A stretch of DNA of 64,000 bases from Escherichia coli (GTDB lineage Bacteria > Pseudomonadota > Gammaproteobacteria > Enterobacterales > Enterobacteriaceae). The stretch is taken from NCBI RefSeq assembly GCF_041248615.1, contig NZ_CP158426.1; one strand, given 5' to 3'. Shown here in pieces: positions 44,601-47,500 of this stretch. How positions within the stretch are numbered: position 1 is the stretch's first letter; each line of letters opens with the position of its first letter. Made by a program: the position numbers.

Positions 44601-47500
44601 CCGGCTGCATCGGGCAGTGATTGTCCTGTTCTGTCTTGCCTTGTTAGTGGCGCTGATGCAGGGGGCGTCATGGTTTAGTCAAAACCACCAGCGACAGCGT
44701 AATCCACAGCTGGAAGAACTGGCCCGCACCCTGGCGCGTCAGGTGACGCTGAACGTTGCACCGCTGATGCGTACCGACTCACCGGATGAAAAACGCATTC
44801 AGGCGATCCTCGATCAGTTAACGGATGAAAGCCGTATCCTCGACGCGGGCGTGTATGACGAACAAGGCGATCTTATCGCCCGTTCTGGCGAAAGCGTCGA
44901 AGTGCGCGACCGGTTGGCGCTCGACGGCAAAAAAGCGGGCGGCTATTTTAACCAGCAGATTGTCGAACCTATTGCCGGGAAAAACGGACCGCTCGGCTAT
45001 CTGCGCCTGACGCTCGACACCCATACGCTCGCCACCGAAGCCCAACAGGTGGATAACACCACTAACATTTTACGCCTGATGTTGCTGCTCTCACTGGCAA
45101 TCGGCGTAGTGCTGACCCGCACGCTGCTACAGGGTAAACGCACCCGCTGGCAGCAATCGCCCTTCCTGTTAACCGCCAGCAAACCGGTGCCGGAAGAGGA
45201 AGAAAGCGAGAAAAAAGAGTGACCCATTACTACAAGAAAGGAAATCGTTATGTCCACATTACGCCTGCTCATCTCTGACTCTTACGACCCGTGGTTTAAC
45301 CTGGCGGTGGAGGAGTGTATTTTTCGCCAGATGCCCGCCACGCAGCGCGTTCTGTTTCTCTGGCGCAATGCCGACACGGTAGTGATTGGTCGCGCACAGA
45401 ACCCGTGGAAAGAGTGTAATACCCGGCGGATGGAAGAAGATAACGTCCGCCTGGCGCGGCGCAGCAGCGGTGGAGGCGCGGTGTTCCACGATCTCGGTAA
45501 TACCTGCTTTACCTTTATGGCTGGCAAGCCGGAGTACGATAAAACCATCTCCACGTCGATTGTGCTCAATGCTCTGAACGCGCTCGGCGTCAGCGCCGAA
45601 GCGTCCGGACGTAACGATCTGGTGGTGAAAACCGCCGAAGGCGACCGCAAAGTCTCAGGCTCAGCCTATCGCGAAACCAAAGATCGCGGCTTCCACCACG
45701 GCACCTTGCTACTCAATGCTGACCTTAGCCGTCTGGCAAACTATCTCAACCCGGATAAAAAGAAACTGGCGGCGAAAGGCATTACCTCGGTACGTTCCCG
45801 CGTGACCAACCTCACCGAATTGCTGCCGGGGATCACCCATGAGCAGGTTTGCGAGGCGATTCGAGAGGCCTTTTTCGCCCATTATGGCGAGCGCGTGGAA
45901 GCGGAAATCATCTCCCCGGACAAAACGCCAGACTTGCCGAACTTCGCCGAAACCTTTGCCCGTCAGAGTAGCTGGGAGTGGAACTTCGGTCAGGCTCCGG
46001 CGTTCTCGCATCTGCTGGATGAACGCTTTAGCTGGGGCGGCGTGGAACTGCATTTCGACGTTGAAAAAGGCCATATCACCCGCGCCCAGGTGTTTACCGA
46101 CAGCCTCAACCCCGCGCCGCTGGAAGCCCTCGCCGGGCGACTGCAAGGCTGCCTGTACCGCGCGGATATGCTGCAACAGGAGTGCGAAGCGCTGTTGGTT
46201 GACTTCCCGGAACAGGAAAAAGAGCTACGGGAGTTATCGGCATGGATGGCGGGGGCGGTAAGGTAACTCGCTGATTTAAATATCCAGGGAAGGAAATATG
46301 ATCGATCTGGAAAACCAGGAACGGGAGATTATCAATTTAATGTTCAGCCAGGGTATATCCTGGCTAACCGCCGTGCGTATCAGGCATAAACTATCACTTG
46401 CTGAAGTAAGTAAAATGTTAGGTATCTCCATTAATTCTCTAATACAGATCGAAAAGACGGAACGGCTTAGTTCAAACATCAAAAGCAAAATGGCAGGAAT
46501 TTATGGTTGTCCACCAGAGTTGCTGATATGCCCTTCCTGGATGACGGCTGAACATAAATGAATAGATTCGTGAATAGATACTTGAATGGATTTTATTTTC
46601 TATCCATATGAAAAATAATAGTAAATCTATAAATCAGTTGCTATTGATGAATAGATACTAAAAAGCCGGAGCAGTCTCCCGCTCCGGCTTCACAAGGCAA
46701 TCGCCTTTCAGCGAAACACAATTACTCTTTATCGCCCAACAGAACGGATTCCAGTGCGATTTTGATCATGTCGTTGAAGGTGGTCTGACGCTCAGCGGCA
46801 GTGGTCTGCTCGTGAGTGCGGATGTGGTCAGACACGGTGCAGATGGTCAGGGCTTTCGCGCCAAATTCTGCAGCGACGCCGTAGATACCAGCTGCTTCCA
46901 TTTCCACGCCGAGGATGCCGTATTTTTCCATCACGTCGAACATTTCGCCGTCCGGAGAGTAGAACAGGTCAGCGGAGAACAGATTACCAACGCGAGCATC
47001 AACGCCCAGTGCTTTAGCCGCGTCTACCGCGTTACGCACCATGTCAAAGTCAGCGATAGCGGCAAAGTCATGGTCTTTAAAACGGATACGGTTAACTTTG
47101 GAATCGGTGCAGGCACCCATACCGATAACGACGTCGCGCAGTTTTACGTGTGGCAGAACAGCGCCACAGGAGCCTACGCGGATAATTTTCTTCACGCCGA
47201 AATCGGTGATCAGTTCTTTGGTGTAGATGGAGCAGGACGGGATACCCATACCGTGACCCATTACGGAAATTTTGCGGCCTTTGTAAGTACCGGTGAAGCC
47301 CAGCATACCGCGAACGTTGTTCACTTCACGGGCATCTTCAAGGAAAGTTTCAGCAATATACTTCGCACGCAGCGGGTCGCCTGGCATCAAAACTACGTCA
47401 GCGAAATCGCCCATTTCTGCATTAATGTGTGGGGTAGCCATTGTTTTATCCTTTTTGTGACATAACAAAGGCGGAGTCAACGCTCCGCCCAAATCCATCA

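What the first reader, a model, noticed from the sequence alone, without database searches (positions are those of the whole stretch)
46267..46721. yjjJ position occupied by a small foreign XRE-type HTH gene plus three TGAATAGAT direct repeats
Between lplA and deoD, K-12 carries yjjJ (a HipA-like kinase of ~443 aa, as I recall) convergent with lplA. This window has no such gene. Instead an 87-aa AT-rich HTH ORF runs in the same direction as lplA, followed by TGAATAGAT repeated at about 46559, 46571 and 46647 before the deoD terminator. This looks like a replacement, not a remnant of yjjJ.
Basis: partly seen in the sequence, partly recalled or inferred. Interest (0 to 1): 0.55.

Follow-up and report, generated by a model that had tools for sequence, protein, structure and literature searches.

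The report
Toxin gene swapped, its operator kept
Most E. coli, including this strain, have the HipH (YjjJ) toxin-kinase gene replaced by a small, oppositely oriented DNA-binding gene, yet still keep the toxin gene's promoter and repeated repressor sites, so the "TGAATAGAT repeats" are the old toxin switch and not part of a foreign insert.

Summary
There is no yjjJ/hipH here. An intact 87-aa XRE-type ORF lies at 46298-46561. TGAATAGAT occurs at 46559, 46571 and 46648, with a fourth copy, TGAATGGAT, at 46583.

- The ORF is not a yjjJ remnant. However, this is the majority allele: 4073 of 5426 complete E. coli genomes carry it, against 1348 with hipH.
- 41-51%-identical orthologues lie directly after lplA in other enteric genera, including Salmonella.
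- The repeats are not part of the replacement. K-12 has them too, just upstream of hipH.
- The same ATCYATTCA repeats, at 12-bp phasing and often with a distal copy ~65 bp away, precede hipH homologues in Enterobacterales, Burkholderiales and Xanthomonadales.
- In K-12 they coincide with a published Reg-Seq "unknown repressor" footprint and contain the -10 of a published sigma-70 promoter.
- Only 46267-46552, running from the lplA stop to the hipH start codon, is swapped.

The small gene matches the DNA-binding part of ParE-associated antitoxins. Its dN/dS is 0.2-0.6, and 41% of E. coli copies carry a Q50 stop.

The orphan operator 9-mers stay conserved across genera while the spacer diverges, so something still uses them. 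I think the small protein most likely binds them (about 0.35), but this is untested.

The parts
45250..46266 (+). lplA (lipoate-protein ligase A). It forms the left border of the cassette. The swap starts immediately after its stop codon (TAA here, TAG in hipH alleles).
46267..46552 (.). Allele-specific 286-bp segment, the only part with no counterpart in K-12. It takes the place of the 1332-bp hipH coding sequence.
   Evidence: blastn against K-12. Present in 4073 of 5426 complete E. coli genomes, against hipH in 1348.
46286..46294 (+). Shine-Dalgarno sequence AGGGAAGGA for the 87-aa ORF. There is no terminator and no credible promoter in the 31-nt gap after lplA, so co-transcription with lplA is inferred.
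   Evidence: read directly from the sequence. The promoter/terminator scan gives one promoter-like hit, whose second hexamer (ending at 46302) covers the ATG, and no terminator-like site.
46298..46561 (+). 87-aa XRE/Cro-CI-type helix-turn-helix gene ('HTH87'), intact in this window. It corresponds to the DNA-binding portion of ~120-aa ParE/RelE-associated antitoxins. Its TGA stop codon is the first three bases of proximal repeat 1.
   Evidence: Pfam HTH_3, E = 5.2e-5. AF2 pLDDT 88.7. Foldseek top hits are CylR2, C.BclI, DdrO and P22 c2. Profile search and gene contexts. dN/dS 0.2-0.6.
46553..46555 (-). Relic of the hipH start codon (CAT on + strand, ATG on - strand). Homology with K-12 ends here. 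A non-conserved 27-codon antisense ORF follows it.
   Evidence: the antisense ORF was read by hand from the sequence.
46559..46567 (-). Proximal operator repeat nearest the former hipH ATG (ATCTATTCA on the - strand).
46571..46579 (-). Middle proximal operator repeat (ATCTATTCA on the - strand). Its K-12 counterpart lies inside the Reg-Seq 'unknown repressor' footprint.
46583..46591 (-). It contains the -10-like hexamer TCCATT (46590 to 46585), which is TCTATT in K-12.
46609..46614 (-). -35-like hexamer TTTTCA of the former hipH promoter, 18 nt from the -10-like hexamer. This matches the published K-12 promoter TTTTCA-18-TCTATT.
   Evidence: Shimada 2014, PMC3946193
46648..46659 (-). Distal operator repeat (AGTATCTATTCA on the - strand), 65 bp from the third proximal repeat. 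The distal-to-proximal spacing of about 63-65 bp recurs in hipH loci of other orders.
46553..46660 (-). The whole orphan hipH promoter-operator block. At least 99% identical in 3417 of about 4050 E. coli genomes with this allele.
46663..46690 (-). deoD intrinsic terminator: a 10-bp GC-rich stem followed by UUUUU on the - strand. It is shared with K-12.
   Evidence: fold gives -29.1 kcal/mol, z = -4.9; inverted repeat I2
46722..47441 (-). deoD (purine nucleoside phosphorylase). It forms the right border of the cassette.

Best explanation
The lplA-deoD interval is a cassette with two main alternative alleles.

One allele, found in K-12 and in 25% of complete E. coli genomes, is hipH/yjjJ with its own promoter-operator. 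The other, found in this window and in 75% of genomes, keeps that promoter-operator intact. It replaces exactly the hipH coding sequence, from start codon to stop codon, with a 264-nt XRE-family gene ('HTH87') pointing the other way.

The TGAATAGAT repeats read ATCYATTCA on the hipH strand. They are the hipH operator:
- two or three copies at 12-bp phasing overlap the -10 and the start site of the sigma-70 promoter TTTTCA-18-TCTATT;
- a distal copy lies about 65 bp upstream.
In hipH alleles the binder is most likely HipH's own N-terminal HTH, acting as an autorepressor.

HTH87 is the DNA-binding module of a ParE-associated antitoxin family. It lacks that family's N-terminal toxin-neutralising part and has no toxin gene next to it. 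It is probably read through from lplA, head-on against the orphan promoter.

The operator 9-mers have stayed conserved next to HTH87 across genera while the surrounding DNA diverged, so the orphan operator is still in use. The mechanism I think most likely is that HTH87 occupies the repeats and holds the orphan hipH promoter down. Otherwise that promoter would transcribe antisense through HTH87 and lplA.

What is shown and what is inferred:
- Shown: the allele structure, its frequencies and its breakpoints.
- Shown: the association of the repeats with hipH across orders, and their conservation without hipH.
- Shown in published K-12 experiments: a repressor-type footprint and RNA polymerase binding at the homologous site.
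- Inferred: HipH as the binder.
- Inferred: HTH87 as the binder here.
- Inferred: antisense transcription from the orphan promoter.

Sub-confidences: two-allele cassette 0.95; repeats are the hipH promoter-operator 0.85; HTH87 is an orphan antitoxin-type DNA-binding module 0.8; HTH87 binds the repeats 0.35.
For: Allele structure:
- Homology with K-12 covers 46553-46721 and stops at the hipH ATG.
- The left breakpoint is the lplA stop codon.
- hipH is in 1348 genomes and the 286-bp segment in 4073 of 5426 complete E. coli genomes, together 5421.
- Every locus inspected has one allele or the other.

The repeats belong to hipH:
- 42 of those loci have a HipH homologue (33-100% identity). Most start within about 60 bp downstream of the repeats, a few up to about 100 bp. 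They come from Enterobacterales, Burkholderiales, Xanthomonadales and others.
- In 8 plasmid hipH homologues chosen by protein similarity only, 4 have canonical tandem repeats. Two have variant tandem repeats in the same layout (ATCTTCTCA, ATCGTTTCA), one has a single copy and one has none.
- Reg-Seq mutagenesis of the K-12 yjjJ promoter found a repressor site of unknown binder at +30..+45. That stretch is TCTATTCACGAATCTA, which is repeat 2, the linker and the start of repeat 3 (PMC7567609 supplements; mapping).
- RNA polymerase holoenzyme binds the deoD-yjjJ spacer, with predicted promoter TTTTCA-18-TCTATT (PMC3946193). Both hexamers and the 18-nt spacing persist in the window.

HTH87 is a real gene of antitoxin ancestry:
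- Pfam HTH_3, AF2 pLDDT 88.7 and an XRE fold.
- All orthologues are 87 aa, with dN/dS of 0.2-0.6.
- Profile relatives are ~120-aa proteins with a RelB-like N-terminus plus HTH_3.
- Those inspected lie directly downstream of ParE/RelE toxin genes.

The operator is still used without hipH:
- Orthologous lplA-HTH87-deoD loci of other genera (L150, L156, L157; HTH87 48-51% identical, dS saturated) keep three proximal copies plus one distal copy, again with the stop codon inside repeat 1.
- The 9-mers are 32-35/36 identical, against 57-65% for the optimally aligned spacer (Fisher p = 1e-3 to 3e-6).
- Within E. coli, the 108-bp block is at least 99% identical in 3417 genomes, while the adjoining ORF segment reaches that level in only 107.

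Hint that HTH87 could read these sites:
- The probable operators of its antitoxin relatives share a TAGAT/AAGAT core.
- Examples: TAATTAGAT x3 in Pectobacterium; AATTAGAT/ATCTAATC in Pasteurella; CATAAGAT x2 in Serratia; ATCTAATATTAGAT in L126.
Against: Against HipH as the binder:
- ChIP-exo of myc-tagged YjjJ in K-12 found no binding sites (Gao et al. 2021).

Against HTH87 as the binder:
- The repeats exist, and are conserved, in many genomes that have no HTH87.
- They also persist next to a different cargo. In Enterobacteriaceae bacterium RIT691 this is a 217-aa membrane protein (L087). In Serratia plymuthica they precede essentially no gene (L094).
- 1686 E. coli genomes, 41% of those with this allele, carry the exact 61-mer holding a Q50 stop codon in the recognition helix. 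The two examples read, H10407 and M11, keep perfect repeats.
- One lineage (L123) keeps HTH87 but has lost the repeats to REP elements.
- A cryptic-clade lineage (L139) has an intact HTH87 with two mutated repeats.
- The residues at the start of the recognition helix differ between orthologues (INSLKQ, PESLAR, PDALKR) although the repeats are the same.
- The 'TAGAT core' resemblance is weak statistically, and 3 of 8 relatives do not show it.

Other gaps:
- No transcript data for the antisense promoter in a strain with this allele were found.
- The generic promoter scan does not score the site.
Confidence: 0.5

Rival explanations
1. The repeats are a functionless relic. hipH was lost, the small gene is a passenger, and the promoter-operator simply has not decayed yet.
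For: - 41% of E. coli copies of the small gene carry a nonsense codon.
- Some lineages show decay of the repeats: L139 has two mutated, L147 and L174 have one deleted, L173 has one mutated, and L123 has lost them all.
- Simple deletions and IS insertions occur at the locus.
Against: - Orthologous loci in other genera keep 32-35 of 36 repeat positions. The small gene there has diverged to 48-51% identity, dS is saturated, and the spacer is about 60% identical.
- Neutral decay over that time should have erased 9-mers with this phasing.
- Within E. coli, the block is far more uniform than the adjoining ORF segment.
Confidence: 0.15
2. A trans-acting factor other than HTH87 binds the repeats in both alleles. 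It could be the unidentified Reg-Seq repressor, a host protein, or HipH homologues supplied by plasmids. HTH87 would then have an unrelated job, or none.
For: - The binder of the K-12 footprint is unidentified, and YjjJ ChIP-exo was negative.
- The repeats are conserved with three other downstream states besides hipH itself: HTH87, a membrane protein, or nothing.
- They stay intact in the two HTH87 nonsense strains that were read.
- At least 19 E. coli plasmids of about 66-117 kb, among 31 Escherichia plasmid records matched, carry a 35%-identical hipH. In the one read (L161) it has ATCTATTCA repeats upstream.
Against: - The repeats travel with hipH onto plasmids and into distant orders. Variant repeat sequences go with divergent HipH proteins (Vitreoscilla, Polaromonas). 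This is what a self-encoded binder predicts, not a universal host factor.
- No stand-alone paralogue of the HipH N-terminal domain was found. Only truncated hipH fragments appeared, though the search has limited sensitivity.
- Plasmid hipH is far too rare to maintain a chromosomal site in 75% of strains.
Confidence: 0.3
3. One reading: a foreign module was imported, consisting of an XRE regulator plus its own TGAATAGAT binding sites, and it displaced yjjJ.
For: - The segment is AT-rich.
- The small gene's relatives are mobile toxin-antitoxin components.
- The gene and the repeats are adjacent.
Against: - The repeats, their spacing and the distal copy are present in K-12 upstream of hipH.
- They are also present in front of hipH in many orders that have no such XRE gene.
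- The replaced DNA ends at the hipH start codon, before the repeats.
- The allele is the majority form in E. coli and is syntenic in other genera.
Confidence: 0.03
4. The 87-aa ORF is a decayed piece of yjjJ, namely its N-terminal HTH domain.
For: - HipH has an N-terminal HTH of about 100 aa (PMC8262856).
- One E. coli strain (WB61) carries a plain truncation that keeps 140 bp of hipH.
Against: - The ORF is on the opposite strand.
- There is no BLASTP similarity to HipH and no nucleotide similarity.
- tblastn with 36 HipH homologues gives only non-collinear matches with E >= 0.01.
- The ORF has clear homologues among XRE antitoxins. By my reading of its sequence (not tested), the HipH N-terminus looks like a winged-helix type.
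Confidence: 0.02

Closest known systems
hipH (yjjJ) locus of E. coli K-12: a monocistronic HipA-family kinase toxin with an N-terminal HTH
   Same: - Same chromosomal slot between deoD and lplA.
- Same deoD terminator.
- Same promoter hexamers (TTTTCA-18-TCTATT in K-12, TCCATT here).
- Same four ATCYATTCA sites with the same spacing.
   Different: - The whole 1332-bp coding sequence is absent and is replaced by an unrelated 264-nt gene on the other strand.
- The 55-nt spacer between the distal and proximal sites is only about 60% identical to K-12's.
ParE/RelE-associated antitoxins with a RelB-like N-terminus plus an XRE HTH (HigA-like order, toxin gene first). Examples: Pectobacterium WP proteins P0123/P0124 and plasmid copies in Pasteurella, Serratia, Leclercia and Enterobacter
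   Same: - The HTH domain and the helix before it are homologous (profile E = 1e-15 to 1e-18, 32-37% identity).
- These relatives have AT-rich repeated operators, several with a TAGAT/AAGAT core.
   Different: - HTH87 lacks the ~40-aa N-terminal RelB-like segment.
- It has no toxin gene next to it; lplA lies upstream.
- It has no room for an operator upstream of itself.
- The only repeat array lies at its 3' end and belongs historically to another gene.
HipB, the antitoxin and repressor of hipBA, reported to rescue YjjJ toxicity
   Same: - A small XRE-type HTH protein (88 aa against 87 aa).
- A functional link to HipH in the literature (PMC9948734).
   Different: - Only generic HTH similarity: hhalign probability 88% over 32 columns, 22% identity.
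- From my own knowledge, HipB operators are TATCC-N8-GGATA palindromes, not ATCYATTCA direct repeats.
Orphan (solo) chromosomal antitoxins, or 'anti-addiction' modules (a concept recalled from my own knowledge of the toxin-antitoxin literature)
   Same: A stand-alone antitoxin-type regulator kept on the chromosome without a cognate toxin.
   Different: It sits exactly where a toxin gene of an unrelated family was, facing that toxin's retained operator. No neutralising domain is present, so any 'immunity' would have to act through transcription.

Membership tests
XRE / Cro-CI helix-turn-helix DNA-binding proteins (Pfam HTH_3) | Sequence match to the HTH_3 profile | tested here: met
   PF01381, i-Evalue 5.2e-5, residues 25-76. 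Also PADLOC HTH_VI, 2e-5.
XRE / Cro-CI helix-turn-helix DNA-binding proteins (Pfam HTH_3) | Five-helix lambda-repressor-like fold | tested here: met
   The AF2 model has pLDDT 88.7 with helices at 22-29, 34-41, 45-54, 59-69 and 73-76, plus an extra N-terminal helix at 4-18. Foldseek top hits are CylR2, C.BclI, DdrO, SinR and P22 c2, with probability about 1.0 and rmsd 1.5-2.1 A over 53-60 columns, although E-values are only 0.02-0.1.
XRE / Cro-CI helix-turn-helix DNA-binding proteins (Pfam HTH_3) | Sequence-specific DNA binding | not testable with these tools
   Needs EMSA or footprinting.
Type II antitoxin of the RelB-like-N + XRE (HigA-like) kind | Homology of the HTH module to antitoxins encoded next to ParE/RelE toxins | tested here: met
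   Profile search hits at E = 1e-15 to 1e-18. Their genes lie directly downstream of ParE_toxin / RelE-ParE genes.
Type II antitoxin of the RelB-like-N + XRE (HigA-like) kind | Adjacent cognate toxin gene in the same operon | tested here: not met
   The upstream gene is lplA and the downstream gene is deoD, which is convergent. No other ORF of 40 aa or more with support lies in 46267-46721.
Type II antitoxin of the RelB-like-N + XRE (HigA-like) kind | N-terminal toxin-neutralising segment (RelB-like, PF18506) | tested here: not met
   The alignment shows that HTH87 starts about 40-50 residues into the relatives. PF18506 is found in P0124 but not in HTH87.
Type II antitoxin of the RelB-like-N + XRE (HigA-like) kind | Autoregulatory operator in its own promoter | tested here: not met
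   Only 31 nt separate the lplA stop from the ATG, and there are no repeats there. The repeat array lies 3' of the gene.
hipH / yjjJ locus (HipA-family clade X, Gerdes 2021) | HipA-like kinase coding sequence with an N-terminal HTH | tested here: not met
   There is no similarity to HipH on either strand. NCBIfam NF007297 matches K-12 HipH only.
hipH / yjjJ locus (HipA-family clade X, Gerdes 2021) | Upstream ATCYATTCA tandem repeats plus a distal copy. This feature is defined here, not in the literature. | tested here: met
   All four sites are present and in register with K-12. The feature is seen in 42 motif-selected hipH loci. Of 8 independently chosen plasmid hipH loci, 4 have canonical tandem repeats and 2 have variant tandem repeats.
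hipH / yjjJ locus (HipA-family clade X, Gerdes 2021) | Position between deoD and lplA in Enterobacteriaceae | tested here: met
   hipH occupies this slot in K-12, E. albertii, Pseudocitrobacter, Citrobacter sp. Cu233, Siccibacter and Cedecea neteri.
HipB-type antitoxin | Specific sequence relationship to HipB beyond the generic HTH | tested here: not met
   hhalign gives 32 aligned columns, 22% identity and probability 88%.
Known RNA family (sRNA, riboswitch) in the repeat block | Rfam covariance-model match | tested here: not met
   No match with E <= 1 in 46000-47000 on either strand.

The most novel reading that the evidence does not exclude
The two alleles may be functional alternatives kept side by side across enteric genera: a 'toxin' allele (hipH with a self-operated switch) and a 'silencer' allele. 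In the silencer allele, a stripped-down antitoxin DNA-binding module has captured the HipH operator. In this reading HTH87 binds ATCYATTCA, shuts the orphan promoter in cis, and could silence incoming hipH genes in trans. A 35%-identical hipH found on E. coli plasmids has the same repeats upstream in the one copy read. That would be transcriptional immunity to a solitary toxin, evolved by exact coding-sequence replacement. As a by-product, the comparative data name the long-unknown regulatory site of HipH, and probably HipH itself as the Reg-Seq 'unknown repressor'.
Probability: 0.25. Interest if true: 0.8.

Novelty: new variant of a known kind. Interest (0 to 1): 0.6.

Why it matters
HipH/YjjJ is studied as a solitary toxin kinase linked to persistence, cell division and c-di-GMP signalling. 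The literature states that how it is controlled is unknown (PMC8262856). Three things follow from this analysis.

1. The K-12 gene is the minority state. Three quarters of complete E. coli genomes lack hipH, including BL21, O157:H7 and ETEC H10407. Conclusions about HipH-dependent persistence therefore do not carry over to most strains.

2. The comparative data define a candidate HipH operator. It consists of ATCYATTCA direct repeats at 12-bp phasing, plus a distal site about 65 bp away. It coincides with an experimentally seen but unassigned repressor footprint. This makes HipH autoregulation, and its possible relief by c-di-GMP, directly testable.

3. A regulatory module that outlives its gene for a genus-scale time, facing an unrelated orphan antitoxin-type repressor, is an unusual case of operator retention or capture. 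It gives a simple system for asking how toxin loci are replaced.

Tried and rejected
- Remnant test. BLASTP of the ORF against HipH, blastn with word size 7 against K-12, and tblastn of 36 HipH homologues against the 294-bp segment. Only short, non-collinear matches with E >= 0.01 appeared, so this was rejected.
- Generic promoter/terminator scans of the window and of K-12. They found nothing useful and did not report the deoD terminator, which folding then confirmed.
- Rfam search of 46000-47000: no match.
- Literature search for the 9-mer itself: only unrelated primer matches. Searches for O157 locus tags and the RefSeq protein accession found nothing.
- Search for a stand-alone paralogue of the HipH N-terminal domain that could bind the orphan operator. 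Only truncated hipH fragments were found. The tool's sensitivity is limited, so this is weak negative evidence.
- NCBIfam and PADLOC searches of the ORF gave only generic HTH hits below their cut-offs. The PDB sequence and fold searches gave only generic XRE proteins.
- Candidate known E. coli regulators were compared with the 9-mer from memory only: ArgR, Fur, DnaA, IHF, TorR and the HipB operator. None fits all copies. These are recalled consensus sequences, not tests.
- A conserved small ORF in the spacer, or antisense from the relic ATG, was considered and dropped. Their lengths and sequences are not conserved between genera (checked by hand from the sequences).
- P0036, a 70%-identical '87-aa homologue', was set aside. 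Its locus does not translate to the listed protein, and the sequence looks like systematically converted or damaged reads.
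Full report
**What is in the window.** The window is E. coli chromosome with the gene order radA, serB, ytjB, lplA (45250-46266, +), then a 455-bp interval, then deoD (46722-47441, -), deoB and deoA. The interval holds one supported ORF of 87 aa (46298-46561, +), preceded by AGGGAAGGA. TGAATAGAT occurs at 46559, 46571 and 46648. A fourth in-phase copy, TGAATGGAT, lies at 46583. The window has five exact copies against 0.35 expected by chance. A strong deoD terminator lies at 46663-46690 (-29.1 kcal/mol, z = -4.9).

**Comparison with K-12.** K-12 has hipH/yjjJ (1332 bp) here, on the deoD strand, with its stop codon touching the lplA stop codon. The window has no similarity to K-12 in 46267-46552. 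However, 46553-46721 aligns to the K-12 deoD-hipH intergenic region. That alignment includes all the repeats, and the homology ends exactly at the hipH ATG, which is CAT at 46553-46555. The left breakpoint is the lplA stop codon. So precisely the hipH coding sequence is replaced, and the repeats lie outside the replaced DNA.

**How common each form is.**
- hipH is found in 1348 of 5426 complete E. coli genomes. The 286-bp segment is found in 4073. Together that is 5421.
- Every locus I opened had one form or the other.
- The small-gene form is carried by BL21, O157:H7, ETEC H10407 and SMS-3-5.
- Both forms are internally diverged: hipH down to 95.9% identity and the segment down to 93.4%.
- K-12 and BL21 differ in allele, so the dimorphism cuts across close lineages.
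- RefSeq annotates the ORF only as 'helix-turn-helix domain-containing protein'.

**What the repeats are.**
- I scanned one genome per bacterial species for TGAATRGATNNNTGAATRGAT.
- 42 of these have a HipH homologue (33-100% identity). Most start within about 60 bp downstream of the repeats, a few up to about 100 bp, all in the same orientation. They come from Enterobacterales, Burkholderiales, Xanthomonadales and other groups.
- The layout recurs: two or three ATCYATTCA copies at 12-bp phasing, in most loci ending within about 40 bp of the start codon. Often a further copy lies about 63-65 bp upstream of the proximal set.
- As a check not biased by the motif, I took eight plasmid-borne hipH homologues found by protein similarity alone. 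Four have canonical tandem repeats. Two have variant tandem repeats in the same layout (ATCTTCTCA in Vitreoscilla, ATCGTTTCA in Polaromonas). One has a single copy and one has none.
- Repeats that travel with the gene and vary with divergent proteins point to a binder encoded by the gene itself, namely the N-terminal HTH of HipH. The literature says only that this domain 'may bind DNA' (PMC8262856).

**Published K-12 experiments fit this.**
- Genomic SELEX found RNA polymerase sigma-70 holoenzyme binding in the deoD-yjjJ spacer, with predicted promoter TTTTCA-18-TCTATT (PMC3946193). The -10 hexamer lies inside the promoter-distal proximal repeat.
- Reg-Seq found two repressor-type sites in the yjjJ promoter. 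One was assigned to MarA (-24..+18). The other, at +30..+45, has an unknown binder (PMC7567609 and its supplements).
- Mapped onto the genome, +30..+45 is TCTATTCACGAATCTA, which is repeat 2, the linker and the start of repeat 3.
- Against self-binding, ChIP-exo of tagged YjjJ detected no sites.
- An eLife study reports that c-di-GMP raises hipH transcription through its promoter and that the HTH is needed for toxicity (PMC11452175). Linking that to these repeats is my inference.

**What the small gene is.**
- It matches Pfam HTH_3 and folds confidently as an XRE-type helical domain.
- A first search found only Escherichia and Shigella homologues.
- An exhaustive search and a profile search found 87-aa orthologues at 41-51% identity. 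Every one whose context could be read lies directly after lplA. They are L123 (unnamed enteric), L149 (Salmonella enterica), L150/L151 and L156 (unnamed enterics) and L157.
- All are 264 nt long. dN/dS is 0.2-0.6, and dS between genera is saturated. It is a real, fast-evolving gene.
- More distant relatives (32-37% identity) are ~120-aa proteins with a RelB-like N-terminus plus HTH_3. Those inspected are encoded directly downstream of ParE/RelE toxin genes.
- The 87-aa protein corresponds to their DNA-binding portion only.
- It has no toxin partner and no room for its own operator. It probably rides on the lplA transcript.
- In E. coli it is often broken. The exact 61-mer carrying a Q50 stop occurs in 1686 genomes (examples). 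Frameshift and IS-disrupted copies also exist. The window's copy is intact.

**The unexpected part: the operator outlives the gene.**
- In L150, L156 and L157 the small protein is only 48-51% identical to this one, and the spacer is barely alignable. Yet three proximal repeats plus one distal repeat are still there, with the stop codon again inside repeat 1.
- Between genera, the 9-mers are 32-35/36 identical against 57-65% for the optimally aligned spacer (p = 1e-3 to 3e-6).
- Within E. coli, the 108-bp block is at least 99% identical in 3417 genomes. The adjoining 286 bp reach that level in only 107 and fall to 90-95% in 2158.
- The promoter hexamers are also kept: TTTTCA at 46614-46609, then 18 nt, then TCCATT at 46590-46585.
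- The block also persists in front of a different gene, a 217-aa membrane protein, in Enterobacteriaceae bacterium RIT691. It persists in front of essentially nothing in Serratia plymuthica.
- Decay does occur in some lineages (L123, L139, L147, L173, L174).

**How it most likely works.**
- Shown: a two-allele cassette with exact coding-sequence replacement; the repeats are the hipH promoter-operator; they remain under constraint without hipH.
- Inferred: in hipH alleles, HipH represses itself at these sites. In this allele the promoter still points into the small gene and lplA, and something still binds the repeats.
- My preferred candidate for that binder is the small protein itself, at about 0.35.
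- In its favour: it is the only regulator encoded in cis, it has co-persisted with the repeats across genera, and the operators of its antitoxin relatives often contain a TAGAT/AAGAT core resembling TGAATAGAT.
- Against it: the nonsense allele is common, the repeats are conserved with other cargos, one lineage has the gene without the repeats, and the recognition helices vary.
- An unidentified trans-acting repressor is nearly as likely (0.3). A pure relic is less likely (0.15).

**Comparison with what is known.** This is not a hipH locus, because the kinase gene is absent. It is not a toxin-antitoxin pair, because there is no toxin and no neutralising domain. It is not related to HipB beyond the generic fold. 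It combines parts of two known kinds: the regulatory region of a solitary HipA-family toxin and the DNA-binding module of a ParE-type antitoxin. I found no paper describing the dimorphism, the small gene or the repeat motif. That literature search covers open-access papers only.

**Verdict.** The feature is real. 'Foreign gene plus its own repeats' is wrong. The finding is of moderate to good interest. It redefines the normal state of a much-studied toxin locus. It supplies a testable operator for HipH. It also shows a promoter-operator retained for a genus-scale time after its gene was swapped.

Noticed in passing
L087:600-1360 (Enterobacteriaceae bacterium RIT691): A third state of the same slot. 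The deoD-side promoter-operator block (three perfect TGAATAGAT copies) is followed, at the position of the hipH ATG and in the hipH orientation, by a 217-aa multi-pass membrane protein instead of hipH.
   Followed up: partly
L094:1470-1600 (Serratia plymuthica NBRC 102599): An orphan operator block (ATCTATTCA distal copy plus two proximal copies, then ATG) lies directly after deoD. It is followed only by an 11-codon ORF and then by a convergent ytjB. Both lplA and hipH are missing from the interval.
   Followed up: partly
L130:1332-1595 and L131:1332-1595 (E. coli H10407, M11); counted: A Q50-to-stop allele of the small HTH gene is very common. The exact 61-mer occurs in 1686 complete genomes. 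In the two strains read, the third proximal repeat is the perfect TGAATAGAT instead of TGAATGGAT.
   Followed up: partly
L161:1400-1490 (E. coli plasmid pE2-2); at least 19 E. coli plasmids of about 66-117 kb among 31 Escherichia plasmid records: These plasmids, predicted non-mobilizable, carry a hipH homologue only 35% identical to K-12 HipH. In the one read (L161), tandem ATCTATTCA repeats lie upstream, the same as on the chromosome, so cross-talk with the chromosomal operator or HTH87 is conceivable.
   Followed up: partly
L158:1314-1476 (Vitreoscilla plasmid) and L160:1287-1449 (Polaromonas plasmid): Divergent hipH homologues have repeats in the same layout but with altered cores (ATCTTCTCA, ATCGTTTCA). 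This would fit co-evolution of HipH's HTH with its operator.
   Followed up: no
L136:629-1087 (E. coli 2018-06-4CC): An IS200C is inserted between the deoD terminator and the distal operator repeat of a hipH allele.
   Followed up: no
L134:181-1644 (E. coli MB22): An IS5-like ISKpn26 is inserted inside the small HTH gene and splits it.
   Followed up: no
L138:2501-2692 (E. coli WB61): A plain deletion allele. Only about 140 bp of hipH (its HTH part) remain, fused towards lplA. The record has NN at the junction, so this may partly be an assembly artefact.
   Followed up: no
L152:2553-2593 and L155:2553-2593 (Pectobacterium): Three direct TAATTAGAT repeats lie upstream of a parE-like toxin and XRE antitoxin operon whose antitoxin is related to HTH87. 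This is probably its operator, and it matches TGAATAGAT at 7 of 9 positions.
   Followed up: partly
L139:2501-2930 (cryptic-clade Escherichia; its HTH87 protein P0002 is named E. marmotae by a source): The small gene differs from the window's at only 4 of 264 nt, while the flanking lplA differs at 6.4% and deoD at 5%. This suggests recent recombinational import of the cassette between Escherichia lineages. Two of the four repeats are mutated there.
   Followed up: partly
L008, L009, L022, L034, L035, L037, L038, L059, L067, L072, L074, L102, L109, L112 (Collinsella): Fourteen Collinsella loci matched the tandem pattern TGAATRGATNNNTGAATRGAT without any HipH homologue. This could be a separate conserved element in that genus.
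   Followed up: no
window 7893-7901 and 18869-18877: Two isolated TGAATAGAT copies elsewhere in the window. They are single copies and presumably chance matches.
   Followed up: no
window 46625-46656: In this allele the distal repeat forms an imperfect inverted pair with a degenerate copy in the spacer (ATCTATAAATCA, 8 nt, TGATGAATAGAT). No comparable inverted partner was noticed when reading the K-12 spacer or the other genera's spacers by eye; this was not tested.
   Followed up: no
L124:5001-5264, L125:3709-3972 (protein P0036): This '70%-identical homologue' and its neighbours look like systematically base-converted or damaged sequence. The locus does not translate to the listed protein, and its LplA is only 56% identical. 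It was ignored as a probable artefact.
   Followed up: no
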